A DNA stretch of 64,000 bases from a virus. The position numbers and the translations under genes are program-made. Location of the stretch: positions 64,001-128,000 of IMG/VR virus record IMGVR_UViG_3300021505_000001; one strand, 5' to 3'. Within the stretch, counting starts at the first letter, position 1. Every line of letters begins with the position of its first letter. Below the pieces are notes generated by a model. The model was not told the DNA's origin, ran no database searches, and saw only the letters and a list, made by a program, of their open reading frames with translations. Below are positions 5,871 through 57,697 of this stretch, in pieces.

Positions 5871-6524
5871 ATGAAGCCAGAATTTATTGTTGCAAGAGAT
5901 TTACCTGATGCTTGGTTTCAATGTGTATACAGGTTACTTGAAATAGGACATGAGTACATTATAGATAGAGGAAGCTATAAGGGTCAAAAACGCCTTGAGT
6001 TTGATTATATAACTGTGCATATAAAATATCCTTCCACTCGTCCTTTACTTCCTGAAATTCCCCCTAATTTAAATATACCCAATCCTGTCTCGGAGGAGTA
6101 TCTTGAACAATATCTCCCATACCTTATGACGTCTGCAAAACAGCCTGATGAAGAGTATACGTATGGTCAATATCTTGAGCCACAGATCAATGAGGTTATA
6201 CGTATGTATAAAGAGGAGGGGCATGGTACAAATCAGGCTTATATGACTATAGGAGATCCTCAATCGATATATCTTGATAATCCACCTTGTTTGAGAGGTA
6301 TAGATACACGTATCAAGGATGGTAAACTACATTTTTTCGTTTATTTTCGTTCTAACGATTTGTGGAACGGATTTCCTGTAAATCTTGCTTCTATTCAGTT
6401 ATTAAAAGAGTATATGGCTTTAAGTATTGGTGTCAATGATGGGGAGGTAATTTATTCTTGTAAGGGGCTCCATCTGTACGACTATGTTTGGGAGCTTGCT
6501 AAAAAGAGAATAGGAAAAGAATAA
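5871..6524 (+). CDS. thyA: Thymidylate synthase, short archaeal-like type
   Basis: YTYG, catalytic PPCL, RSNDLWNGFPVN (Asn at the dUMP-specificity position), HLY. Confidence 0.85.
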   Translation: MKPEFIVARDLPDAWFQCVYRLLEIGHEYIIDRGSYKGQKRLEFDYITVHIKYPSTRPLLPEIPPNLNIPNPVSEEYLEQYLPYLMTSAKQPDEEYTYGQYLEPQINEVIRMYKEEGHGTNQAYMTIGDPQSIYLDNPPCLRGIDTRIKDGKLHFFVYFRSNDLWNGFPVNLASIQLLKEYMALSIGVNDGEVIYSCKGLHLYDYVWELAKKRIGKE

Positions 6525-6555: not shown

Positions 6556-7689
6556 ATGAACTTTTATAAAATTTTAAATAAAGAAGAAATTCATCACGGT
6601 TTAAAATATCATGATGGATTAAATATAGACCCATTACCTTTTAATCCTAACGGAGATTGTAAGCCTGGTGGTATTTATTTTTCAAGAGAAGATATTCTAG
6701 CTTTTTTAAATTATGGAATATGGATAAGGCAGGTTACTCTTCCAGAAGGAGAAACAATATATGAAAACCCAGGTTCTCCTAAAAAATGGAAAGCTAAGAA
6801 GGTTATTTTAGGAAAGCGAAAAAGAATCAATTTAAAAGTTATCAAAGGATTAATAAAAGAAGGTGCTAATATTCATGCAGGTCATGTTGATGCTTTAATG
6901 TGGTCAGCAGAGAAAGGTTACTTTGATATAGTTAAGTATCTGGTAGAGAATGGAGCTAATATACATGCAAACGATGATTATGCTTTAAGATTATCGGCAC
7001 AAAAAGGATATTTTAATATAGTTAAGTACTTAGTAGAAAATGGTGCTAATATCCACGCTAGGAATGATTATGCTTTAAGATTAGCAGCCGAAAATGGTCA
7101 TTTTAAAATAGTTAAGTACTTAGTGGAAAATGGTGCTGATATACATGCTAGAAATGATAATGCTTTAATATGGTCAGCAGAAAAAGGTCATTTTGAAGTA
7201 GTTAAATACTTAGTGGAAAATGGTGCTGATATACATGTAAGAGGTGATTATGCTTTAAGATTAGCAGCACGAAAAGGTCATCTTGATATAGTTAAGTATA
7301 TAGTAGAGAATGGTGCTAATATCCACGCTAGAAATGATTGTGCTTTAATATGGTCAGCAGAAAAAGGTCATTTTGAAGTAGTTAAGTATTTAATAGATAA
7401 AGGTGCTAATATCCACGCTAGAAATGATTGTGCTTTAATGTGGTCGGCACGAAAAGGTTACCTTGATATAGTTAAATATCTGGTAGAGAATGGAGCTAAT
7501 ATCCACGCTAGAAATGATTATGCTTTAATATTATCAGCCTATTATGGTCATTTTGAAGTAGTTAAGTACTTGGTAGAGAATGGAGCTAATATACATACGG
7601 ATGATGATTGTGCTTTAAGATTAGCAACTGAAAAAGGTCACCTTAATGTGGTTGAGTACTTAGAAGGAAAAGGAAAGGAGAAACTATAA
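6556..7689 (+). CDS. Ankyrin-repeat protein 1 (~100-aa N-terminal domain plus 9 x 30-aa repeats)
   Basis: GANIHAxxDxALxxSAxxGxxxIVKYLVEN repeats. Confidence 0.95.
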   Translation: MNFYKILNKEEIHHGLKYHDGLNIDPLPFNPNGDCKPGGIYFSREDILAFLNYGIWIRQVTLPEGETIYENPGSPKKWKAKKVILGKRKRINLKVIKGLIKEGANIHAGHVDALMWSAEKGYFDIVKYLVENGANIHANDDYALRLSAQKGYFNIVKYLVENGANIHARNDYALRLAAENGHFKIVKYLVENGADIHARNDNALIWSAEKGHFEVVKYLVENGADIHVRGDYALRLAARKGHLDIVKYIVENGANIHARNDCALIWSAEKGHFEVVKYLIDKGANIHARNDCALMWSARKGYLDIVKYLVENGANIHARNDYALILSAYYGHFEVVKYLVENGANIHTDDDCALRLATEKGHLNVVEYLEGKGKEKL

Positions 7690-7761
7690 ATAAAAAAGGG
7701 TTTTAACTATAATAAAATATGTTTGGGAACTTGCCAAAAAAAGAATAGGAAAAGTATTAAA

Positions 7762-8232
7762 ATGAACTTTTATAAAATTTTAAATGAAGAAGAAATTCAT
7801 TGTGGCTTAGAGTATCATGATGGACTAAATATAGACCCATTACCTTTTAACCCTGCTGGAGACTGTAGACCCGGTGGTATTTATTTTTCAAGAGAAGATA
7901 TTTTAGCTTTTTTAGGTTATGGGCCTTGGATAAGACAAGTAACGATTCCAAAAGGAGAACAAATATATGAAAACCCTGGTTTTCCTAAGAAATGGAAAGC
8001 TAAGAAGGTCATCTTAGGGAAGCGAAGAAGAATTAGTTTACAAGTTATTAAAGAATTAGTAAAAGAAGGTGCTAATATTCATGCAGGTAATGATAAAGCT
8101 TTAGTATGGTCAGCACAAAAAGGTTATCTTGAAGTAGTCAAGTTTTTAATAAAAAAAGGTGCTAATATACATGCAAGAGGTGATTATGCTTTAAGATTAT
8201 TAACACAAAATGGTCATTTTAAAAGTAGTTAA
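7762..8232 (+). CDS. Ankyrin-repeat protein 2 (2 repeats, frameshifted C-terminal cap; possible pseudogene)
   Basis: Same N-terminal domain; extra A at ~8221-8224 puts VVKYLEGK out of frame. Confidence 0.8.
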   Translation: MNFYKILNEEEIHCGLEYHDGLNIDPLPFNPAGDCRPGGIYFSREDILAFLGYGPWIRQVTIPKGEQIYENPGFPKKWKAKKVILGKRRRISLQVIKELVKEGANIHAGNDKALVWSAQKGYLEVVKFLIKKGANIHARGDYALRLLTQNGHFKSS

Positions 8233-8265
8233 ATATTTAGAAGGAAAAAAAGAAAGAAATAAAAT

Positions 8266-8349
8266 ATATTTTATAGCTATCCAAAATAATTTTTTCTTGA
8301 TATACTTTAATAAACAGTATATTTTTATTAAAAGGAGAAACTATAAATA
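8266..8349 (+). repeat. 84-bp direct repeat, copy 1 (contains TTGATA-17-TATTTT and AGGAG)
   Basis: Matches 9764-9847 with one mismatch. Confidence 0.9.
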
Positions 8350-8363
8350 GGAAAGGTATTAAA

Positions 8364-9761
8364 ATGAACTTTTATAAAATTTTAAATGAAGAAGAAATTC
8401 ATCATGGCTTAAAGTATTATGATGGATTAAATATAGACCCATTACCTTTTAACCCTACTGGAAATTGCGAACCTGGTGGTATTTATTTTTCAAAAGAAGA
8501 TATTCTAGCTTTTTTAGGTTATGGGCCTTGGATTAGACAAGTAATGATTCCAGAAGGAGAACAAATATATGAAAACCCAGGTTATCCTAAAAAATGGAAA
8601 GCTAAAAAAGTTGTCTTGGGGAAAAGACGAAGAATTAATTTAAAAGTTATTAAAAAATTGGTAAAAGAAGGTGCTGATATACATGCGGGTTATGATTATG
8701 CTTTAATGTGGTCAGCAGAGAAAGGTTATCTTGATATAGTTAAGTATTTAATAGAGAATGGAGCTAATATACATGCGGGTAATGATTATGCTTTAAGATT
8801 ATCAGCGGAAAAAGGACATTTTGAAGTAGTTAAATACTTGGTAGAGAATGGAGCTAATATACATGCTAGAGATGATTATGCTTTAAGATTATCGGCACAA
8901 AAAGGATATTTTAATATAGTTAAGTATTTAATAGAGAATGGAGCTAATATACATGCAAATGGTGATTACGTTTTAAGATTATCAGTACGAAAAGGTTATC
9001 TTGATATAGTTAAGTATCTGGTAGAAAAAGGAGCTGATATACATGCGGGTAATGATTATGCTTTAAGATTATCGGTACGAAAAGGATATTTTAATATAGT
9101 TAAATACTTAGTGGAAAAAGGAGCTAATATACATGCAAATGATGATTACGTTTTAAGATTGTCGGCACGAAAAGGATATTTTAATATAGTTAAATACTTA
9201 GTGGAAAAAGGAGCTAATATACATGCAAGAGGTGATAATGCTTTAATATTGTCAGCATGTTATGGTCATCTTGATATAGTTAAGTATCTGGTAGAGAATG
9301 GAGCTGATATACATGCGGATAAGGATTATGCTTTAATGTGGTCAGCAGAAAAAGGTTACCTTGATATAGTTAAATATCTGGTAGAAAAAGGTGCTAATAT
9401 TCATGCGGGTTATGATTATGCTTTAAGATTAGCAGCTGAAAATGGTCATTTTAAAGTAGTTAAATATCTGGTAGAGAATGGAGCTAATATACATGCTAGG
9501 AATGATTATGCTTTAAGATTAGCAGCGGAAAAAGGTTACCTTGATATAGTTAAATATCTGGTAGAGAATGGAGCTAATATACATGCTAGAGATGATTATG
9601 CTTTAAGATTATCAGCGGAAAAAGGACATTTTGATATAGTTAAGTATCTGGTAGAGAATGGAGCTAATATACATGCAGGTAATGATTATGCTTTAATGAG
9701 GTCAATAGAAAAAGGTCATCTTGATATAATAAAGTACTTAGAAGGAAAAAAGAAAGGATAA
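8364..9761 (+). CDS. Ankyrin-repeat protein 3 (N-terminal domain plus 12 x 30-aa repeats)
   Basis: Paralog of 6556..7689. Confidence 0.95.
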   Translation: MNFYKILNEEEIHHGLKYYDGLNIDPLPFNPTGNCEPGGIYFSKEDILAFLGYGPWIRQVMIPEGEQIYENPGYPKKWKAKKVVLGKRRRINLKVIKKLVKEGADIHAGYDYALMWSAEKGYLDIVKYLIENGANIHAGNDYALRLSAEKGHFEVVKYLVENGANIHARDDYALRLSAQKGYFNIVKYLIENGANIHANGDYVLRLSVRKGYLDIVKYLVEKGADIHAGNDYALRLSVRKGYFNIVKYLVEKGANIHANDDYVLRLSARKGYFNIVKYLVEKGANIHARGDNALILSACYGHLDIVKYLVENGADIHADKDYALMWSAEKGYLDIVKYLVEKGANIHAGYDYALRLAAENGHFKVVKYLVENGANIHARNDYALRLAAEKGYLDIVKYLVENGANIHARDDYALRLSAEKGHFDIVKYLVENGANIHAGNDYALMRSIEKGHLDIIKYLEGKKKG

Positions 9762-9763
9762 AC

Positions 9764-9847
9764 ATATTTTATAGCTATCCAAAATAATTTTTTCTTGATA
9801 TACTTTAATAAACAGTATATTTTTATTAAAAGGAGAAGCTATAAATA
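9764..9847 (+). repeat. 84-bp direct repeat, copy 2
   Basis: Matches 8266-8349 with one mismatch. Confidence 0.9.
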
Positions 9848-9928: not shown

Positions 9929-10519
9929 ATGAGAATTCCTTTATATAAGTGTAAAAATTGTTCTTGGTTCACAAGATATGATAAGAATACAAATACAGTT
10001 TTTTGTAATTACGAGTTTATAAATTCAGTACAAGTTACGGTAGATATGAATGAACAGAAAGTTGTAGACTGCCCTAAAAAACCTGTTGGAGTGACTGTTA
10101 AGATAGTAAAGGATTACAATGTAGATTTGCCTTTTTATGCTACTCCGAACTCTTCAGGTTTTGACTTAGCTGCTTCTACGATAATAATAGTGTGTCCAGG
10201 AGAAAGACTCGTAGTACCTACAGGGTTGAAACTTGAGATTCCTAATGGTTATGAACTTCAAATAAGACCTCGTTCTGGTTTGTCTTTAAAATCACCTTTA
10301 ATAATAGCAAATTCTCCTGGTACAATAGATGCTGATTATAGAGGTGAAATTGGAGTTATTATTTGGAATACAGATAATAACAAAAACTATGTTATTAATA
10401 AAGGTGATCGAATAGCTCAGGGTGTTTTATCTAAAGTAGAAAGAGCTAAATTTGTTGTGGTTGATGAATTATCAAGAACAGATAGATAGGAAGGTGGTTT
10501 TGGTCATACTGGAAGGTAA
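9929..10519 (+). CDS. dut: Trimeric dUTPase with Cys-rich N-terminal extension, interrupted by in-frame TAG at 10487-10489
   Basis: SGFDL, RPRSG, GTIDADYRGEI, GDRIAQ; motif V reads TDR-*-EGGFGHTGR-TAA. Confidence 0.9.
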
Positions 10520-12149: not shown

Positions 12150-12572
12150 ATGTTTTTTAGAGACCAATATTTCTTTCTTAGTAACTTTGCTTTCTGTAAA
12201 ATTAAATTAAACGGATTATTATTTAATTCAGTTGAAACAGCTTTTCAAGCTGCTAAGACCAAAGATTTAGAGACCATGAAAACTTTTTGTACTTTAACAC
12301 CTTCGCAAGCAAAACAGAAAGGTAGACATATAAAACTAAGATCAGATTGGGAAGAAATTAAATGTTCAGTAATGTATTCTTTATTGAAGCAAAAGTTTAG
12401 TCAGCAACCATTTAAAGAATTATTAATAGATACAGGTAATATACATATCCAAGAAGATAATTATTGGGGAGATACTTTTTGGGGTGTGTGTAATGGTCAA
12501 GGAAAAAATAAATTAGGGGAATTACTAATGAAAATTAGAGAAGAATTAAAAGAAGAAATGAAGTTATTGTAA
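12150..12572 (+). CDS. NADAR family (YbiA-like) protein
   Basis: FLSNF, SVETAFQAAK, RSDWEE, KF.Q, DTFWG, G.NKLGELLM.IR. Confidence 0.9.
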   Translation: MFFRDQYFFLSNFAFCKIKLNGLLFNSVETAFQAAKTKDLETMKTFCTLTPSQAKQKGRHIKLRSDWEEIKCSVMYSLLKQKFSQQPFKELLIDTGNIHIQEDNYWGDTFWGVCNGQGKNKLGELLMKIREELKEEMKLL

Positions 12573-36644: not shown

Positions 36645-36684
36645 CCAAAAAGAATATTATTTCTAAAAAATAGGAGTGCTTGTT

Positions 36685-39600
36685 ATGGCTGAAAGCCGTG
36701 TTTTAACAAATATACCGTATACAACACATAATTATAGTAATTATGATATTGTTACTGAAGAAACAAGAGATATTGTTGATGTTCCTTATTTTCCAGCTCA
36801 GAATTTAGTTGATGTTTCAAGGAAACTAAATCTCTATAATCCTATAGCTGATGTTTATGTTCCATTTATTGATGATTATGGACATGAGAGACTATTCGCT
36901 TTACTGTTTAGAAAAGATGCTCGATATCTCTTTGTAGAATTTGCTGATAATGCCCGTTATTTAAGTTATGCTTTTTCGGGTAATTCTTTTCCGCAGGGTC
37001 GTGAAGATACTTCATATACTTATGATGGACATAATTTCTATCTGTTTGGTGGTTTTAGTGATGGTAGATGTATGAACGACATGTGGGAATATGATCTCAA
37101 TTCAAATAGTTGGCGTATGGTCAATTTTTCAAATGTTGAAATTACAGCAAATGAAGCTCCTACAAGACGTAGAAAAGCAAGTATACTTAAAACACCTTCT
37201 AAATTATATTTGTTTGGTGGTGAGACAGATGTTTTATCTATAAATACAGCTAATACAGATTCCTTTATAGTACCTTTAAATGATATTTGGGTATATGACT
37301 TTGATTATGAAACTTGGACAAATTTTGATAAAAATAGAGAAATCCCTCATCGTCCTGGAAATATCATTTACGCTGACAGTGCAGTTATTAAGATTATTGT
37401 CAAAGGAGGTATTAATGAAATAGGTATTAATGAACCAACAGCTATATGGACTATTGATATTGCTACAGATGATGTTACAAGTCAGGTATTTTCTCCACCA
37501 TTTACACCATCATCAAATAATGTATGTCTGCTTGTTGACGGAAATTATTGTATATTAACTGATGGAGGAGATTTGTATAGATGGGATAATACAAATGGTT
37601 CCTTTCATCTTGAAAAAAGTAATGCTACTGCTGTAAATCCTATTACTAAACATTATTGGAAAATAAATATTATAGAAAAAGATTATGGTAATAATTCCAC
37701 AATGGGACATACTGATATTCAGATTGCTGAAGAATATCAATGGGATGATACACTTGTTTCTACTAGGGATATAAATCTTATTCCAAAAGGAGTTTCTATA
37801 TCCTCTATAAATGTTGGTAATCTTCAAACATTCTTTTATGGAGGAATGATCGATAACCAACATTTTAATGAATCAACTTATATATATAATCACACAACAA
37901 GAAGTGTAGAAAAATTAGATTTTGTACCAGAAGAAAGACCAACTGAAAGAGTATTTTCATCATTTGCTTATGATAAGTTTCGTGGACGTGTATGGTTATT
38001 TGGTGGATTTGATGGTTCAAAATACTATAATGATTTATGGTATTTTGATCTGGGTTTAAAGAAATATTTTAAGGTACATGATCAACTTGAAAATACAGAT
38101 GTGGATAATCCTAAATATCCTCAACCCCGATGGAAAGCAGGTATGGCTGTAGTAGCAGAAGATTATCTATATGTGATAGGTGGATATTCAGATGTTAGAG
38201 CTTTTAATGATTTTTGGATGTATCATATTCCAACTGGGGAATGGAAAAAAGAATATCCTGTAGATGATATTCCTTGGGGTTCTCAATATTTTATTTTTGA
38301 ATGGAGAGATAGGCTTTGGTTTTATAATGGACAAAAACTATATCGTTACTTTTATAAAATAAAACAATTTGTTGACCAACCATTTCTAATTCCAGATATA
38401 TACACAGATAATTCAACGAATCATAAAACGATTGTTGACGTAATTCAAAGTAAAGAATATCTTGACCCACCTATAGATGTTACTGTTACAAATGATGCTT
38501 TGTTTGTTCAGAATATTAGCAGTGGAAAAGGATATACTTTTCGTGTGGACTTAGAATCTCGTGTTCTTATGGATTTAAATTTTGATTTTGACTTTGATGA
38601 AAAAGTTTTATGGATGGATAGATACTATGGTGTAGGTGTTGGAAGTTTATCTGACTACTATATTAACGTTTCACTACTATATCCTCTTACAAAAAATCAA
38701 ATTCCAAATTCTTATTTCCATAGAGAAACAGATGAAATGCCTTTAAATGCTCTATGGTTTCAGGATTATTCAGTAGTATCCGGTGAAAATAAAGAATCCT
38801 ATATGGATAATGCTGGTATTTTTAGAATACAAAAAGAAACAATTAAATTAGATAAAGCTGAACTTCTTGTTGATAGAGAAATATCTGTAGCTGGAACAAA
38901 TGAATGGGTTCCAAATGTAAATTTTGATGACCCTGATGATGTTTGGAATGCAACTATAGACGTTATAACAAAACCAACATCTTATGTATATACACCATGG
39001 TTTTTATATCAAAAATATCTTCCACCTGGTTTTCCCTATAAGGGGGCACAAAAGGTTGTTTATAATAGTAGTGCCAAAAGGATATATATTATCTATAAAA
39101 ATGGTAATACAGTTAAATACAATCCATTTGATAATACTTTCTTTACATATTTTAGTAAAATATGGGAAGGCACTGCTATAGGATATAATGAAAAAATTAA
39201 TAAAATATATGCTTTTGGTGGCTTAAAAAATGATAGAAAAGTATATATGCAATCAGGTGTAGAATGGAATCCAGTTGTAATAGGACAAAAGAATGGACAA
39301 GGTTTTTCTGCTGTAGGAACAAAAGAAGAACAAAGTCATTGTGGTTTAATGGAATTTGACCTTAATATGAATGAAATGAACCTTGGTAGTATTGAAGGTT
39401 ATTTAAGAGAAAAAAAGGTTGCATCTGTTGACTATTCAGTGACTAAAGAATATCTAACAGAAATTGTTAGACATTATATTGAAGGTTACTCTCAGAATAT
39501 TATTCCTAATTCATTAGATGATATTAAACAGAAAATTTATCAGGCAACACAACCAATAGTAGATGATTTATCTCAGTTTGATTTTGCTTTTGAAAATGGA

Positions 39601-42087
39601 ACCCGTCCTCTTTCAAAAGCTTATACACTTAGTACACAAATAGGTAGTAAACTTTATATATTTGGTGGGGGACAATGTTATACGGTAGAATGCACACCAG
39701 AAATAGCTAATACTCCTTATTGGGTATGTAAACCTGGCGCATTACAAAATGAAGCTGCTGATGATCATGATGACTCAACACCACCACCTTATAATCCAGA
39801 TGTGGAAGCACGTAGAGCTTATGAATTCGATATGGATACAAGAACTTGGAAAGAGTTAAGTTTATTACCTGAATGGTTATATGCTGGTACTGCTATTCCT
39901 AGTCCAGATAATAGATATATTTATCTTGTTGGAGGTTATACAGTAGAAGATTGTGGTTCTCCTTCTGATAAGATTTACGTTTATGATACTTATACTGATA
40001 GATATTCAGAAATAAAAGGTATTCCTTCTACATATGCTGGAAGAGCCCTTCCTGTTCTGAAATGGATTGATGATGAACATTTAATGATTCAATTTGGATG
40101 TCGAACACATACTGTATGTGAATCAGGAGGCGGGTGTACATTCTGTCACCATGTCCATATTCCTATAAGAGATACTTGGATAATGGATACCAGAAACTTT
40201 TTATTTTATAAAGCTTTTGAGGACATTTCAACTTTTACTGGGATGCTTGTAAAGGATTCTTTCTATGTTGGGGATGAAAGAGATGAAAGTAAAGTGTGGA
40301 TAATGAGTACATCCCCAATTGAAGATAATAATGGAAATCCAACTTTAATTGTATATGAGTGGAATCTTGTTAATGGAGATGTTGATGTCTTACCAGTAAT
40401 CCCTTCAAATGAAATTATAAACGACTATAATATGTTTAGTTTCATGGATGATGAGAGTAAAGCTGATTCTCTTTTTGAAGATGGTGGAGGTACATCTACT
40501 AAAGATTTACTGATGTTCTCAGCATTAAAGAGTAATTTCCGTTTCCGTTATGCATGGAGTGAAGAATATGGAACTTACAATCATAAACATTTATTTATAG
40601 TGGGAGAAAGAGCAGAAAAATCAGGTATAGAATTTATAGAGGAGATAGCACGTGGACATAAAGAAGCTCATTTACGTTTTTGGTATGTTGATATGGAGGT
40701 TCCTGCTAATGGACGTGTAATGGTAAATGTTACTTATGAATATCCACTTCCAATATCACCTGTTTGTATAGCTTATGATGGAGATAAATACCTATATGTT
40801 ATTTACAATAAATACAATATATGGCGTTTAAATTTTAAAAAAGTTTTAGAAGATGTAAATGGAAATTGGTGGTATCAATTACCCCCATGTATGGATTGCA
40901 ATTTCTTGGGGGATGACAGAACAGATGATGCATGGCAGTCTTTCTTTACACCACCAAAATATCTCACTCTTGTATCTCAAGATGGAAAGTATGCTAGGAT
41001 GGATGCTGAAACCTTTACATGGTTTTTAGATAAGAAAGACCCTCCTGAGCCTCCACTTCCAAAAATGAAATTAAAGGCAGCATCCGGTGTTGATCAGAAT
41101 GAAATTTATATGTATCAACTTGGTTCTATTGCTGGTAAAGTAATGAATGTTTATGAAAGGCAATGGGATAATTTCTATTTTGATATGACAATTACAAATG
41201 ATGTTGTCAAAAACTTTCAGGCTGTTATAGATAAAAATTTGTGGCCAACTATAATAAGACGTAGGAGATTATATACAATAAATTCTTTTGGGCATGTATT
41301 TTATGCTTGGTTGCGAATAGAAGGTAAATTTGATGTTGAGTACCAATTAAATGATTTTTATCAAGGAGATGAAGTTCGGATTTATGGTGATTATGCATTT
41401 TTACAACAGTGGGATAATGCCAAAGTATCTGTTTTTACTATAAATAATGGTTGGGTAGAAATTGACCAATCTAATCTTACTCCAATTACAAATGAAACAG
41501 GATGGGATTGGGATAGTAATTTCATGAGGCGTTACCGGCGTGAATTTGTTGGTGCAACTGGAGATATACAAGTTCAATACTCTAAAGTTCCACCAAATTA
41601 TCTTTCTGTTGATTTAGATAGTGCTATTGGTGATGTACCAATATCAAAAATAAGAGTATTCTTTCAAAATGACCCAAAACCATATAATTATATGTCTCAT
41701 ATTAACAGAGTAGAACTAATAACTAATCAAGTTATTATGGCTGCTTATGATGACCCAAATTCAGCTTCCCCTTTAACAATCGTTCATATAGAACCTTTGT
41801 CACCAGAGCAGGATTATAGTAATGAATTTGCAATTTATGTTAGAAATGATGGTTCTGATACAGCACGGGAAGTACAAACTTATGTAATGAATAATGAATG
41901 GGTTCAGTTTACTAAAGACCCAAATGATCAAACATCTTGGACAATACGTGATGAAAATCATCCGTTTTGGTTAGAAGATGAATTATTACCAGGAACAGTA
42001 ACACGTTTCTATGTAAGAGCTGTTAATATTGATATGAGACCTCATCTTAAAGACTTGGTTGTTAAAGCTATTTATCCATTTAGCTAG
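36685..42087 (+). CDS. Large Kelch-repeat beta-propeller protein, probably virion-associated
   Basis: Repeated Y[LIV]FGG...ND.W.YD....W blades; start moved to ATG 36685. Confidence 0.85.
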   Translation: MAESRVLTNIPYTTHNYSNYDIVTEETRDIVDVPYFPAQNLVDVSRKLNLYNPIADVYVPFIDDYGHERLFALLFRKDARYLFVEFADNARYLSYAFSGNSFPQGREDTSYTYDGHNFYLFGGFSDGRCMNDMWEYDLNSNSWRMVNFSNVEITANEAPTRRRKASILKTPSKLYLFGGETDVLSINTANTDSFIVPLNDIWVYDFDYETWTNFDKNREIPHRPGNIIYADSAVIKIIVKGGINEIGINEPTAIWTIDIATDDVTSQVFSPPFTPSSNNVCLLVDGNYCILTDGGDLYRWDNTNGSFHLEKSNATAVNPITKHYWKINIIEKDYGNNSTMGHTDIQIAEEYQWDDTLVSTRDINLIPKGVSISSINVGNLQTFFYGGMIDNQHFNESTYIYNHTTRSVEKLDFVPEERPTERVFSSFAYDKFRGRVWLFGGFDGSKYYNDLWYFDLGLKKYFKVHDQLENTDVDNPKYPQPRWKAGMAVVAEDYLYVIGGYSDVRAFNDFWMYHIPTGEWKKEYPVDDIPWGSQYFIFEWRDRLWFYNGQKLYRYFYKIKQFVDQPFLIPDIYTDNSTNHKTIVDVIQSKEYLDPPIDVTVTNDALFVQNISSGKGYTFRVDLESRVLMDLNFDFDFDEKVLWMDRYYGVGVGSLSDYYINVSLLYPLTKNQIPNSYFHRETDEMPLNALWFQDYSVVSGENKESYMDNAGIFRIQKETIKLDKAELLVDREISVAGTNEWVPNVNFDDPDDVWNATIDVITKPTSYVYTPWFLYQKYLPPGFPYKGAQKVVYNSSAKRIYIIYKNGNTVKYNPFDNTFFTYFSKIWEGTAIGYNEKINKIYAFGGLKNDRKVYMQSGVEWNPVVIGQKNGQGFSAVGTKEEQSHCGLMEFDLNMNEMNLGSIEGYLREKKVASVDYSVTKEYLTEIVRHYIEGYSQNIIPNSLDDIKQKIYQATQPIVDDLSQFDFAFENGTRPLSKAYTLSTQIGSKLYIFGGGQCYTVECTPEIANTPYWVCKPGALQNEAADDHDDSTPPPYNPDVEARRAYEFDMDTRTWKELSLLPEWLYAGTAIPSPDNRYIYLVGGYTVEDCGSPSDKIYVYDTYTDRYSEIKGIPSTYAGRALPVLKWIDDEHLMIQFGCRTHTVCESGGGCTFCHHVHIPIRDTWIMDTRNFLFYKAFEDISTFTGMLVKDSFYVGDERDESKVWIMSTSPIEDNNGNPTLIVYEWNLVNGDVDVLPVIPSNEIINDYNMFSFMDDESKADSLFEDGGGTSTKDLLMFSALKSNFRFRYAWSEEYGTYNHKHLFIVGERAEKSGIEFIEEIARGHKEAHLRFWYVDMEVPANGRVMVNVTYEYPLPISPVCIAYDGDKYLYVIYNKYNIWRLNFKKVLEDVNGNWWYQLPPCMDCNFLGDDRTDDAWQSFFTPPKYLTLVSQDGKYARMDAETFTWFLDKKDPPEPPLPKMKLKAASGVDQNEIYMYQLGSIAGKVMNVYERQWDNFYFDMTITNDVVKNFQAVIDKNLWPTIIRRRRLYTINSFGHVFYAWLRIEGKFDVEYQLNDFYQGDEVRIYGDYAFLQQWDNAKVSVFTINNGWVEIDQSNLTPITNETGWDWDSNFMRRYRREFVGATGDIQVQYSKVPPNYLSVDLDSAIGDVPISKIRVFFQNDPKPYNYMSHINRVELITNQVIMAAYDDPNSASPLTIVHIEPLSPEQDYSNEFAIYVRNDGSDTAREVQTYVMNNEWVQFTKDPNDQTSWTIRDENHPFWLEDELLPGTVTRFYVRAVNIDMRPHLKDLVVKAIYPFS

Positions 42088-44303: not shown

Positions 44304-46136
44304 ATGTTAACTGTAGATGAAACCACTAAAAAATTAAAAGAGTTACTTAAAACAACTCATCCAATGCAGATAGCTTCTAAGCTCAGACTTGGAAAAGCTT
44401 ATAGAAATATTTATGAAAGTCTAATTAAACACACATCATTTTTAGATTCCTATAATCCAACTATTACAGAAAGAATATATTGTTTACTGAATGAAATATA
44501 TAGTAGACCAAAATGTGAAACTTGTGGAAAAACGGTTAAATTTCATTCTCTTACTGAAGGATATCCCAAATATTGTTCAAACCGTTGTGTAGGAAAGTCA
44601 AAAAATCGTATTAAAAAACAACAAAAAACCTGTCTAAAAAAATATGGGGACATATCTCCTCTCAGTAAAAAATCTTCATGTTACAATAGAGTGAAAGAGG
44701 GTGTTATTAAAAAATATGGTGTTGATAATGTTCAAAAAGTAAAAGAAATACAAGAGAAGAGAAAACAAACATGTCAAGAAAGATATGGTGTTTCGCATCC
44801 AATGCAGTGCCATAATATATCTACAAAATATGCTTCAACACTTAAAGTATCTTTATTGAAAAAATATGGTGTTGATAATGTAGCTAAACTTCCTCATATA
44901 CAAACCAAAATCTCTAAAACACATAAATCTGAAAAAACAAAAGTAAAAATAAGACAAACCTTAAAAAAGAAATATGGTTTGGATGTCTGTAATGTTAGTC
45001 AAATCCCTGCCGTTAAGAAAAAGATTAGAATTACAATGGCAGAAAAATATGGTGGTTGGAAGAATCAAGAACACATTAAAAATTTTGAAAAATACAATGA
45101 TAGTAGTTTTTGGAATAAAGAATTTGTTTTATCAAACAGGACACTCGATGTTGCTGGAGCGTGCCAATTCTTTGGAGTGAGCGATCAAACTATTAAACAT
45201 CATGCTACAGAGATTTTAAGATTAAATATTAACCTACCCCGAAATAGCTCAAAAATTAAACAAGAAATAGCTTTATTCGTTAAACAATTACTTGGTAAAC
45301 AAGAAGTCTTTTGTAATACTAGAAAAGTGATACCACCATTTGAAATAGATGTTTATGTTCCATCTAAACATCTTGCTATTGAGTTAGATGGTGTTTATTG
45401 GCATTCAATTGGTAAGTATCCATGGAATAACTTGGCTAATGAGTATTATGAAAAAAACAGATTAGTTAGAAAATTTGAAAAAATAAAGGAAAAAGGATTA
45501 AATCTTTTAAATTTCAGAGATATTGAATGGATTCACAAACAACAAATCTGTAAAAGTATGATTAAAAGCAAATTAAGTCTTATAGATAGAAAAATATCTG
45601 CCAGAAAGTGTGAATTAGTTGAATTATCTACTGATAAAACAAATTCATTTTTGAATCAAAATCATTTACAAGGAAGTGTTCCTGGTGGTAAAATTAGATT
45701 AAGTTTGATGTCTAATAACGAAATTGTTTGTGTAGCAACATTTGGGAAGTGGAGATTTGGAAAAAATAGTTGGGAATTACTTAGATTTTCCAATAAAATT
45801 GATACTGTTGTTGTAGGAGGAATTTCTAAAATAATCAAACATTTTCTTAAAAGTTATAAAACAAATAAACTTATATCATATGCTAATAAACGTTGGTCTA
45901 ATGGAAATGTTTATAGAAAGATAGGATTTGAATTTATAAGGGATACAGGATTGGGTTATTGTTATGTTCATCCTTCTACAAAACAATTGATTTCAAGACA
46001 AACTTTTCAGAAACATAAACTATACAGTTTATTAGGGGATAAATTTGATAAGAATAAAACAGAAAAGCAAAATATGATTAATGCAGGATATAGAGTTCTA
46101 TATGAACCTGGAAATTTGCTTTTTCAAATTAAATAG
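44304..46136 (+). CDS. Hef-like free-standing homing endonuclease
   Basis: CxxC..YCSxxC, KYGVDN repeats, FEIDVYVP..LAIELDGVYWHS, NHLQG, ELLRF, SYANKRWSNG. Confidence 0.8.
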   Translation: MLTVDETTKKLKELLKTTHPMQIASKLRLGKAYRNIYESLIKHTSFLDSYNPTITERIYCLLNEIYSRPKCETCGKTVKFHSLTEGYPKYCSNRCVGKSKNRIKKQQKTCLKKYGDISPLSKKSSCYNRVKEGVIKKYGVDNVQKVKEIQEKRKQTCQERYGVSHPMQCHNISTKYASTLKVSLLKKYGVDNVAKLPHIQTKISKTHKSEKTKVKIRQTLKKKYGLDVCNVSQIPAVKKKIRITMAEKYGGWKNQEHIKNFEKYNDSSFWNKEFVLSNRTLDVAGACQFFGVSDQTIKHHATEILRLNINLPRNSSKIKQEIALFVKQLLGKQEVFCNTRKVIPPFEIDVYVPSKHLAIELDGVYWHSIGKYPWNNLANEYYEKNRLVRKFEKIKEKGLNLLNFRDIEWIHKQQICKSMIKSKLSLIDRKISARKCELVELSTDKTNSFLNQNHLQGSVPGGKIRLSLMSNNEIVCVATFGKWRFGKNSWELLRFSNKIDTVVVGGISKIIKHFLKSYKTNKLISYANKRWSNGNVYRKIGFEFIRDTGLGYCYVHPSTKQLISRQTFQKHKLYSLLGDKFDKNKTEKQNMINAGYRVLYEPGNLLFQIK

Positions 46137-55930: not shown

Positions 55931-57697
55931 TCAAAGAAATAAATATTTTAGATTACCAGCGTCATAGATTCTTCTATATCCATGTATGTATAAATTTTCT
56001 GAAGTACTTAGATTGGAATTAAAATTTGGTAGGAGTTTTTTTAATTTATATCGTTGGAAACTAATTCTATGCTTTAAAGAATAAATATCATCCTGATGAA
56101 AAACCCAAAAATTTGGTTTGGTTATCGATAAAAGCTTGAAATTATTTATTTCATAAACACTACCATTACTCCATCTACGATTAGCAAAACTTATAATTTT
56201 ACAGTTTCCATTGTGTTTTAAAAGCTTTGAAAACCCACCAACAACAGATATATATTTTAAATTACAATAGCGTAACAATTCAATTGTATCTTGATTTCCA
56301 AAACGAGATTTGCCAAAAGACATACAGGCAACTAACATATTTTTAAATAATAATCCTATATGTAAATTTCCACCAACAATACCTCCTTGTAAATGATTAT
56401 CATAATAAAAATTATTTGCTTCTTTTTGAGATAGTTTAATTATATTACAATTTCTTGCATAAATCTTCTTTTTAAAAAGACCAAACTTAGAAGATATAAC
56501 AGACTCCCAAATTTTTTGTTTGTTAGGATTATTCCATTCATTTTCAAAAATCTGAAGTAGTAAGATACCTTTTTGAGAAGCTTTATTAGCCTTTTCCCAT
56601 AGTCTACTTTTTAGTTTACCTTCCATATAAGCATTATTTGGGTGGTAACCAAATGAATGCCATATCATACTATGGAATTCTATTCCTATTTTCTTTTCAG
56701 GAACATAAACATCTATTTCAAATGGTGGGATAACATTTCTTACATTTAATTCTATTTTATCTATTCCAATTGATTCTAAAAAGTCTTTAATTTCCACCTC
56801 AAATCGGGAGTGTCCTCTATATGGTTTATAAGGAATACCAATACGATTTAAATGACATCTGATATTAGTTAAATTATTTATCCCAAAAAAAGACATCATT
56901 TCCCGATAGCGAATAGTTCCATCAGAATTAATAAAATTCTCTTTAATAAAAGAACTATTATTCCATAAATCAAGATTTTTTATATGCCTTTGTGATGGAT
57001 TAGATACACCATAACGTTGCATACAAGTATTTTCTCTTTTTTCAACTATAGCTTTAAGCTGGCTAACATTATCGACACCATACCTCTTTTTTACTGTCTC
57101 TTTAATCTTTCTTTTAACTTTATCTGATTGAGATGGATGGCAACCATAATTCTCTACAAATTTTCTTTTTATCTTTCTTTTTATTATTTCAGATTGGAAA
57201 GTAAATTCTGTACCATATCTTTCTTTATTTGTTTTCTTTCGTTTTTCAGTAGCTTTTTTACTATGAGCTTTTAATGAATTGTTTTTTTGAAAATTAGAAT
57301 TATGAAAATTTGAGGCATAACCATACCTTTTTATAAAAGTAGCTTTTGTAGCCTCTTTTAAATGAATTTTACGAGCTTCTAAACTTCCATATTTTTTAAT
57401 CCAAGTTTCTTCAGTTTTTTTCTTTTTCCTTTCATCACTATTAGCACACTTAATACTACAGTAAGGAGCATAACCTTTATTAAAAGATATAAAACGAGAT
57501 TTTTTTAATTTACAATGTTTGCATATAGAAGTACCGTATAGGATAACATATAATCTTTCACTAAGAGAACTATCCTCTGAAAGGAAATTTGTAGCTCTTA
57601 TAATTTTCTCTAACAAATCTTTCTTAGTACGAAAAATTAAACCAAAACTTTTTGGTGATTTATCTTTAATAAGTTTACTTATTTCCTGTTTTAACAT
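55931..57697 (-). CDS. Hef-like free-standing homing endonuclease (paralog of 44304..46136)
   Basis: YCSIKC, RYGVDN repeats, FEIDVYVP..IGIEFH..WHS, NHLQG, FANRRWSNG, YDAG. Confidence 0.8.
   Translation of the reverse strand: MLKQEISKLIKDKSPKSFGLIFRTKKDLLEKIIRATNFLSEDSSLSERLYVILYGTSICKHCKLKKSRFISFNKGYAPYCSIKCANSDERKKKKTEETWIKKYGSLEARKIHLKEATKATFIKRYGYASNFHNSNFQKNNSLKAHSKKATEKRKKTNKERYGTEFTFQSEIIKRKIKRKFVENYGCHPSQSDKVKRKIKETVKKRYGVDNVSQLKAIVEKRENTCMQRYGVSNPSQRHIKNLDLWNNSSFIKENFINSDGTIRYREMMSFFGINNLTNIRCHLNRIGIPYKPYRGHSRFEVEIKDFLESIGIDKIELNVRNVIPPFEIDVYVPEKKIGIEFHSMIWHSFGYHPNNAYMEGKLKSRLWEKANKASQKGILLLQIFENEWNNPNKQKIWESVISSKFGLFKKKIYARNCNIIKLSQKEANNFYYDNHLQGGIVGGNLHIGLLFKNMLVACMSFGKSRFGNQDTIELLRYCNLKYISVVGGFSKLLKHNGNCKIISFANRRWSNGSVYEINNFKLLSITKPNFWVFHQDDIYSLKHRISFQRYKLKKLLPNFNSNLSTSENLYIHGYRRIYDAGNLKYLFL

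What the first reader, a model, noticed from the sequence alone, without database searches (positions are those of the whole stretch)
6556..9761. Mosaic ankyrin array resembling a natural DARPin-like binder library
Seen: three paralogs with 9, 2 and 12 exact 90-bp (30-aa) repeats. The framework is nearly fixed. Variation concentrates in the two residues after IHA (GH, ND, RN, RG, GY, GN, DK), the residue before AL, the two after AL (MW, RL, IW, IL) and the two before G (EK, QK, RK, EN, YY, CY). The same short nucleotide blocks (atgtggtcagcag, agattatcggcac, ggtcattttgaagta, ggttaccttgatata) reappear in new combinations within and between genes. Established: these positions correspond to the ankyrin binding surface randomised in DARPins, and canonical repeats are 33 aa. 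Inference: inter-repeat recombination diversifies binding specificity without a reverse transcriptase, perhaps against host defence proteins. This is the best candidate for an undescribed system in the window.
Basis: partly seen in the sequence, partly recalled or inferred. Interest (0 to 1): 0.8.

Follow-up and report, generated by a model that had tools for sequence, protein, structure and literature searches.

The report
Giant-virus-type ankyrin genes in a phage
Three neighbouring genes of an uncultured large tailed phage each join a conserved head domain, whose predicted fold resembles ADP-ribosyltransferases, to a shuffled array of short 30-residue ankyrin repeats; the shuffling is real but is the ordinary recombination seen in ankyrin genes, not a new diversity-generating system.

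Summary
Genes A (6556-7689), B (7762-8232) and C (8364-9761) carry 9, 2 and 12 ankyrin repeats with a period of exactly 90 bp. Amino-acid variation sits in a few codons, and repeat segments recur in new combinations (PHI p<0.0002; tract sharing 19 pairs against 2.3 expected).

The "undescribed system" reading is not supported.
- Repeats differ as much at synonymous sites (dS about 0.6) as the paralogues' head domains do (0.33-0.57).
- dN/dS at the variable codons is 0.67.
- No reverse transcriptase was found in the 155-kb record.
- The paralogues arose by plain segmental duplication: a copy of the thyA tail lies before gene B, and B and C share a 3' flank.
- Chimeric ankyrin repeats made by recombination are already documented in Wolbachia and its prophages (PMC3563639).

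Earlier scan notes on this same genome had already flagged the giant-virus likeness.

The parts
6556..7689 (+). Gene A, 377 aa: head domain (6556-6861) plus 9 ankyrin repeats of 30 aa (6862-7671, the last a C-terminal cap)
   Evidence: ORF; repeat register; Pfam Ank_2 E 7e-83; head-domain model pLDDT 97.7
7762..8232 (+). Gene B, 156 aa from the ATG shared with A and C: head domain plus 2 repeats, the second cut short by a frameshift
   Evidence: Head domain is under purifying selection (omega 0.17-0.21 against A and C)
8221..8224 (+). A run holding one extra base relative to the other repeats; it shifts the frame of the cap repeat of gene B
   Evidence: Alignment of the three gene ends; repeat B2 translation
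8364..9761 (+). Gene C, 465 aa: head domain (8364-8669) plus 12 ankyrin repeats of 30 aa (8670-9749)
   Evidence: Pfam Ank_2 E 1.6e-85
6482..6518 (+). 3' end of the thymidylate-synthase-like gene, the source of the copy found before gene B
   Evidence: Alignment
7718..7754 (+). About 37-nt copy of the thyA 3' end, fused to the shared leader GTATTAAAATG of gene B; a scar of segmental duplication
   Evidence: leader motif found only before A, B and C
8294..8339 (+). 46-nt exact copy (within about 85 nt of near-identity) of the flank that also follows gene C; contains TTGATA-17-TATTTT, a promoter-like site
9792..9837 (+). Second copy of the 46-nt flank, between gene C and the dUTPase gene

Best explanation
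Genes A, B and C are tandem paralogues of a large virus-borne family of two-part proteins.

Part one is a compact head of about 100 residues, rich in beta strands, whose predicted fold resembles ADP-ribosyltransferases (ARTs). It runs straight into part two, a solenoid of shortened (30-residue) ankyrin repeats that serves as the target-binding arm.

The genes multiplied by ordinary segmental duplication. The arrays grew and were reshuffled by ordinary homologous recombination between repeats (unequal crossover and gene conversion). Selection keeps the framework fixed and tolerates or favours change on one face of the first helix.

Most likely each paralogue binds a different host (or rival) protein early in infection and brings the head domain to it. 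The head would then either modify the target using NAD+ or hold a nucleotide-type ligand.

Shown: the architecture, the homology to Mimiviridae ankyrin proteins, the mosaicism and the duplication scars. Inferred: that the fold reflects true ART kinship, the binding face, and any enzymatic activity or target.
For: - Architecture and ankyrin identity.
- The head domain is conserved at omega 0.16-0.21 between the paralogues.
- It recurs in 2,224 clusters (at 50% identity) with E<=1e-3. It is fused to ankyrin, DUF4116 and other repeats, or stands alone.
- BFVD matches: Megavirus, Tupanvirus, Moumouvirus and mimivirus R267/L26, with E down to 9e-12, TM 0.91 and 41% identity.
- A second model, built from a homologue 44% identical to gene A's head domain, gives the same list.
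- Family-wide conserved polar residues are K5, H13, Y18, D25, C35, Y41, K77 and K/R79.
- Recombination.
- Duplication scars.
- A related 16-kb contig carries 12 tandem paralogues.
- The tailed-phage context is shown by major head, portal, NrdD and ligase genes.
Against: - Foldseek found nothing significant in the PDB, and a sequence profile found no ART.
- No Glu is conserved where ARTs carry the catalytic one. Position 59 is E, K or Q, and the strand where I place that site starts with an invariant Lys. That placement comes from strand order, not from a superposition.
- The head is smaller than any ART known to me.
- No target, host or expression data exist.
- dN/dS below 1 gives no sign that the binding face is under positive selection.
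Confidence: 0.6

Rival explanations
1. One reading: the locus is a dedicated, ongoing diversification system. It would be a natural binder library that reshuffles repeat cassettes to retarget specificity, for example against host defence proteins.
For: - Mosaic repeats with significant recombination signal, including tracts shared between genes A and C.
- Variation concentrated on putative surface codons.
- All 22 full repeats differ in sequence.
- Tandem paralogues could act as donors for one another.
Against: - No recombinase, invertase, reverse transcriptase or silent cassette store lies beside the genes.
- Repeats are old: dS is about 0.6, the same as between the paralogues' head domains. 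The longest identical tracts are only 50-69 nt.
- dN/dS at variable codons is 0.67.
- The same positions vary in the whole family.
- The same kind of chimeric repeats arises in Wolbachia ankyrin genes by ordinary recombination (PMC3563639).
Confidence: 0.07
2. The head domain is not an enzyme. It would be a structural cap or adaptor (virion anchoring, oligomerisation, or docking to a host machine), and the proteins would act purely as ankyrin binders, decoys or scaffolds.
For: - The catalytic Glu of ARTs is not conserved.
- The last helix of the head continues directly into the first repeat like an N-terminal cap.
- Inactive ART-like domains are among the structural matches (PARP13 and a CNFy domain). 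That these are inactive is from my own knowledge.
Against: A set of polar residues (K5, H13, D25, C35, Y41, K77) is 93-100% conserved across sequences down to about 41% identity. That is more typical of a ligand or active site than of a cap. Stand-alone heads without repeats also exist.
Confidence: 0.3
3. The arrays are an assembly artefact: short-read mis-joining of similar repeats.
For: The source is a metagenome assembly. Repeats share exact words of up to 60-69 nt. Gene B carries a homopolymer frameshift.
Against: - The ORFs of A and C are intact over 27 and 36 helices, with proper N-terminal and C-terminal cap repeats.
- Every repeat is unique.
- Relatives on independent contigs show the same 30-aa period.
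Confidence: 0.03

Closest known systems
Mimiviridae ankyrin-repeat paralogue families (e.g. mimivirus R267 and L26, Megavirus, Tupanvirus and Moumouvirus 'ankyrin repeat proteins')
   Same: Same head domain (Foldseek E down to 9e-12, TM 0.91, up to 41% identity). The 30-aa repeat period dominates among the metagenome and phage relatives checked (145 of 172 spacings). Same habit of tandem paralogue expansion.
   Different: Here the carrier is a tailed phage with major head and portal genes, so any target is presumably bacterial. The arrays (9 and 12 repeats) are longer than the 2-5 repeats typical of phage relatives.
Wolbachia and phage WO ankyrin genes, which evolve by repeat duplication, deletion and shuffling (PMC3563639)
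   Same: Chimeric repeats whose halves match different repeats, differences in repeat number, and significant intragenic recombination.
   Different: Those are canonical 33-aa repeats without this head domain. In Wolbachia the evidence comes from comparing strains; here it comes only from comparing repeats within one genome.
Designed ankyrin repeat proteins (DARPins)
   Same: Fixed framework with variation at a few positions. Repeat positions 7, 10, 17, 18 and 30 align to randomised DARPin positions.
   Different: Three residues of the beta-hairpin are missing. In the model of a relative, helix 1 starts six residues into the repeat and is 12 residues long. The TPLH motif is absent, and two variable positions fall on DARPin framework residues.
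Tankyrase (ankyrin repeat clusters plus a PARP catalytic domain); small phage ARTs such as the anti-CRISPR protein 6kyf and T4 Alt/Mod
   Same: The logic: an ankyrin arm that recruits a substrate, joined to an ART-fold module. PARPs, tankyrase 2 and 6kyf are among the structural matches.
   Different: The domain order is reversed, the head is much smaller, sequence similarity is undetectable, and the catalytic Glu is not conserved. Activity is unproven.
Bodo saltans virus ankyrin 'genomic accordion' (PMC5871332)
   Same: Directional tandem duplication of ankyrin genes with variable repeat numbers, read as an arms-race signature.
   Different: 148 copies at the genome ends there. Here there are three copies, lying between nucleotide-metabolism genes.

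Membership tests
Ankyrin repeat (Pfam Ank / Ank_2) | Profile match above the curated threshold | tested here: met
   Ank_2 273.8 and 282.2 bits against a cut-off of 27.3; E 6e-69 to DARPins and ankyrin-1 in the PDB
Ankyrin repeat (Pfam Ank / Ank_2) | 33-residue unit with a beta-hairpin and the TPLH motif | tested here: not met
   The unit is 30 aa. HMMER places a 3-residue gap in the hairpin, and xAL(R/M/I)(L/W) replaces TPLH. This is a short variant, still clearly homologous.
Ankyrin repeat (Pfam Ank / Ank_2) | Helix-turn-helix pair in each unit | tested here: met
   DSSP on the model of relative P0222 gives helices 106-117 and 121-129 within one 30-aa unit
Mimiviridae-type head-plus-ankyrin proteins | Homologous N-terminal head domain of about 100 aa | tested here: met
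   BFVD E 9e-12, TM 0.91, 41% identity; 2,224 clusters by phmmer
ADP-ribosyltransferase superfamily | ART fold (split beta-sheet core) | tested here: inconclusive
ADP-ribosyltransferase superfamily | Catalytic triad: H-Y-E, or R-S-E | tested here: inconclusive
   H13 (99%) and Y41 in GG(I/L)YF (96%) are conserved and lie 28 residues apart. No Glu is conserved, and K77 is invariant where I would place it by strand order. No superposition was available.
ADP-ribosyltransferase superfamily | NAD+ binding or ADP-ribosyl transfer | not testable with these tools
   Needs biochemistry
Diversity-generating retroelement | Reverse transcriptase with a template/variable repeat pair | tested here: not met
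   No RVT_1 match in the 155-kb record, which is an estimated 60% of the genome. Repeats also differ at synonymous sites throughout.
Programmed cassette-recombination systems (vlsE or lamprey VLR type) | Silent donor cassettes and/or a dedicated recombination enzyme next to an expression site | tested here: not met
   All three genes are complete, with their own start and shared leader. The neighbours are thyA-like, dUTPase and NADAR genes.
Programmed cassette-recombination systems (vlsE or lamprey VLR type) | Variation within a population or over time | not testable with these tools
   No near-identical contig could be fetched

The most novel reading that the evidence does not exclude
The head is an active, unusually small NAD+-using transferase of a new ART clade (H-Y-K type). 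Phages and giant viruses would both use it as a retargetable weapon: the repeat arm (ankyrin, DUF4116 or other) chooses the victim protein or nucleic acid, recombination among repeats re-aims it, and the family has moved between viruses of bacteria and of eukaryotes.
Probability: 0.25. Interest if true: 0.75.

Novelty: new member of a known kind. Interest (0 to 1): 0.45.

Why it matters
The mosaic array itself is ordinary ankyrin evolution. The family is not yet understood. More than two thousand clusters of viral proteins, including the notorious ankyrin expansions of mimiviruses, share a head domain with no Pfam entry, and the searches I ran found no paper on it. Finding the same module in a tailed phage, and finding that its fold points to ADP-ribosyltransferases, gives a concrete biochemical test (NAD+ binding and transfer). 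It also offers a bacterial setting that may be easier to handle than amoeba viruses. If the head is active, it would explain why so many large viruses keep dozens of these genes.

Tried and rejected
- Pfam, PHROGs and a PDB sequence profile on the head domain alone gave nothing. The only hint was a sub-threshold DUF7666 match for one relative (25 bits against a cut-off of 27).
- Foldseek against the PDB gave no row with E<=0.001.
- Ntox19, a toxin domain reported as fused to ankyrin repeats in mimivirus (PMC3482391), was considered. Its published motif (D, H, DxxxR, E, HxxF) does not fit this domain.
- Near-identical phage genomes were sought to compare repeat number. A tblastn of the head domain against GenBank phages found nothing. 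An exact look-up of the dUTPase also found nothing.
- Viral-contig scans found only 8 loci. A scan of 185,579 species genomes found 6, all on short MAG contigs from unrelated phyla, so there is no host signal.
- One profile was too diverse for the locus scan.
- The PDB profile search with full-length rows was swamped by ankyrin matches.
- Literature searches on phage ankyrin and anti-defence, and on DUF7666, returned nothing.
- I could not map residues onto a surface or overlay active sites, because model coordinates are not exposed.
- A PHI test on synonymous codon choices alone was only weakly significant (p 0.026 at the shortest window, not significant beyond). With dS about 0.6, some of the homoplasy may be recurrent mutation.

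Full report
**What is there**

The window is part of a 155.7-kb IMG/VR virus record (CheckV completeness about 60%). GC content is about 29%. The record carries a major head protein, a portal, NrdD, an NAD-dependent ligase and homing-endonuclease-like genes, so it is a large tailed phage.

Three plus-strand genes lie between a thymidylate-synthase-like gene (5871-6524) and a dUTPase gene (9929-10489):
- A, 6556-7689
- B, 7762-8232
- C, 8364-9761

Each starts with the same domain of about 102 residues (85% identical between the paralogues). Units spaced exactly 30 residues apart follow: nine in A, two in B and twelve in C. Tandem Repeats Finder gives period 90 with 0% indels. Pfam calls them ankyrin repeats with very high scores (Ank_2 E 7e-83 and 1.6e-85).

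**Checking the observation**

The repeats are regular in period but not identical. Pairwise DNA identity is 59-93%, and every repeat is unique.

I number the repeat from the G of GANIHA. The most variable codons are then 7, 8, 10, 13, 14, 17, 20, 22 and 28. Codons 18, 21, 23 and 30 switch between two or three states.

The second repeat of gene B carries one extra base in an A run, which ends the ORF early. Without that base it would read as a normal C-terminal cap repeat like those of A and C.

**Is the array mosaic?**

Yes.
- Site-pair incompatibility rises with distance along the 90-nt unit (38% at 1-5 nt, 77% at 51-90 nt). A PHI test gives p<0.0002 at all window sizes tried.
- In a GENECONV-style test, 19 of 231 repeat pairs share runs of identical polymorphic sites at p<0.01, where 2.3 are expected. 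For example, C10 matches A3 over one stretch and A7/C8 over another.
- Using only synonymous codon choices, the signal is weak (p 0.026). Some of the homoplasy may therefore be recurrent mutation.

**Why this is not a special system**

- Synonymous divergence between repeats is the same in framework codons and variable codons (pS 0.42 and 0.43). The DNA is not being targeted at the variable codons. Selection holds the framework (dN/dS 0.16) and relaxes on the rest (0.67, below 1).
- Repeats are as old as the gene duplicates. dS is about 0.6 between repeats and 0.33-0.57 between the head domains. The longest identical tracts are 50-69 nt.
- The paralogues show plain duplication scars. A copy of about 37 nt from the thyA 3' end sits directly before gene B (the lead came from an earlier scan note). 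About 85 nt of flank, 46 of them exact, follow both B and C.
- No reverse transcriptase was found in the record. The neighbouring genes are for nucleotide metabolism.
- The same positions are the most variable across 145 repeats from unrelated members of the family.
- A related contig carries twelve tandem paralogues with 2-5 repeats each.
- Chimeric ankyrin repeats, repeat-number changes and intragenic recombination are documented in Wolbachia and its prophage (PMC3563639). Tandem ankyrin expansions in giant viruses have been read as a genomic accordion (PMC5871332).

**The DARPin comparison**

HMMER aligns the repeats to DARPins with a three-residue gap in the beta-hairpin.
- Positions 7, 10, 17, 18 and 30 fall on DARPin positions 33, 3, 13, 14 and 26. 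By my own knowledge of the DARPin design, these are the randomised ones.
- Positions 13 and 14 fall on the framework residues H9 and L10.

In the model of a relative, the first helix of the 30-aa unit spans repeat positions 6-17. Positions 7, 10, 14 and 17 (with 13 and 18) would therefore lie on one helical face.

**The head domain**

This turned out to be the more informative part.

Distribution:
- It has no Pfam or PHROG family.
- An exhaustive phmmer search finds it in 2,224 clusters at 50% identity, 746 of them at E<=1e-10.
- It is fused to ankyrin repeats, DUF4116 repeats or other repeats, or it stands alone.
- BFVD links it with high confidence to ankyrin proteins of Megavirus, Tupanvirus, Moumouvirus and mimivirus (R267, L26).
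- The protein-atlas search also shows both giant-virus and tailed-phage clusters.

Fold:
- AlphaFold models it at pLDDT 97.7.
- Foldseek sees nothing significant in the PDB.
- A second model, from a homologue 44% identical to gene A's head domain, reproduces the list.

Conserved residues are K5, H13, Y18, D25, C35, Y41 (in GG[I/L]YF), K77 and K/R79. From my own knowledge, the spacing of H13 and Y41 recalls the His and Tyr of the H-Y-E class of ARTs. No catalytic Glu is conserved, so I put enzymatic activity at only about 0.3.

**Likely function**

Each protein looks like a binder arm joined rigidly to a small ART-like head. The genes sit among genes of early type. The most likely job is to bind particular host proteins and either modify them or hold them. 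The paralogues would cover different targets.

A NADAR gene (ADP-ribose processing family) lies 2.4 kb downstream. The link is only suggestive.

The host is unknown. Relatives in genome collections sit on short MAG contigs from unrelated phyla.

**Verdict**

- The locus is a new, phage-borne member of a known but uncharacterised giant-virus ankyrin family.
- The ART-like head is the lead worth testing.

Earlier notes of this scan on the same genome had already flagged the giant-virus likeness and the thyA-tail border. I checked both here.

Noticed in passing
window 8212-8232: Gene B ends through a one-base insertion in an A run, inside what would be its cap repeat. With the frame restored there is no stop until just before gene C. 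This is either a decaying paralogue or a homopolymer sequencing error.
   Followed up: partly
window 8250-8345 and 9765-9843: The flank after gene B and the flank after gene C are nearly identical (46 nt exact), although the coding regions beside them are only about 90% identical. The flank holds a promoter-like TTGATA-17-TATTTT, so it may be a conserved regulatory element or a recent conversion tract.
   Followed up: partly
window 36676-42087 (+): A 1,803-aa ORF just after the portal gene has strong Kelch beta-propeller matches (E 2e-47). Kelch is a eukaryote-typical repeat and unusual in a phage structural region.
   Followed up: no
window 44304-46136 (+) and 55931-57697 (-): Two large paralogous proteins, both matching the homing/HNH endonuclease family phrog_3339 at E about 1e-113. 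One also carries DUF7487.
   Followed up: no
window 12150-12572 (+): A NADAR-domain gene (E 2e-22; also matches T4 gp30.3) lies 2.4 kb downstream of the ART-like ankyrin genes. It could be a partner in ADP-ribose chemistry or simply a common phage gene.
   Followed up: no
window 9929-10489 (+): The dUTPase has an extra N-terminal stretch of about 60 residues containing several Cys (CxxC...C...C), which may be a zinc-ribbon-like extension.
   Followed up: no
window 5871-6524 (+): The thymidylate-synthase-like protein is short (217 aa) and matches only the C-terminal part of the Pfam model (E 4e-11). It may be a divergent pyrimidine-modifying enzyme rather than a standard ThyA.
   Followed up: no
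L011 5001-5273 (IMG/VR contig of 1,259,197 bp): The head-domain match in this giant-virus-sized genome contains an in-frame stop, so that copy may be a pseudogene.
   Followed up: no
P0001 (547 aa, metagenome): One ORF holds two complete head-plus-ankyrin units in a row. Either two tandem genes have fused or the stop between them has been lost.
   Followed up: no
L012 2805-11452: A 16-kb contig (GC 38%) carries twelve same-strand head-plus-ankyrin paralogues back to back, interrupted by one unrelated gene with a signal-peptide-like start.
   Followed up: partly
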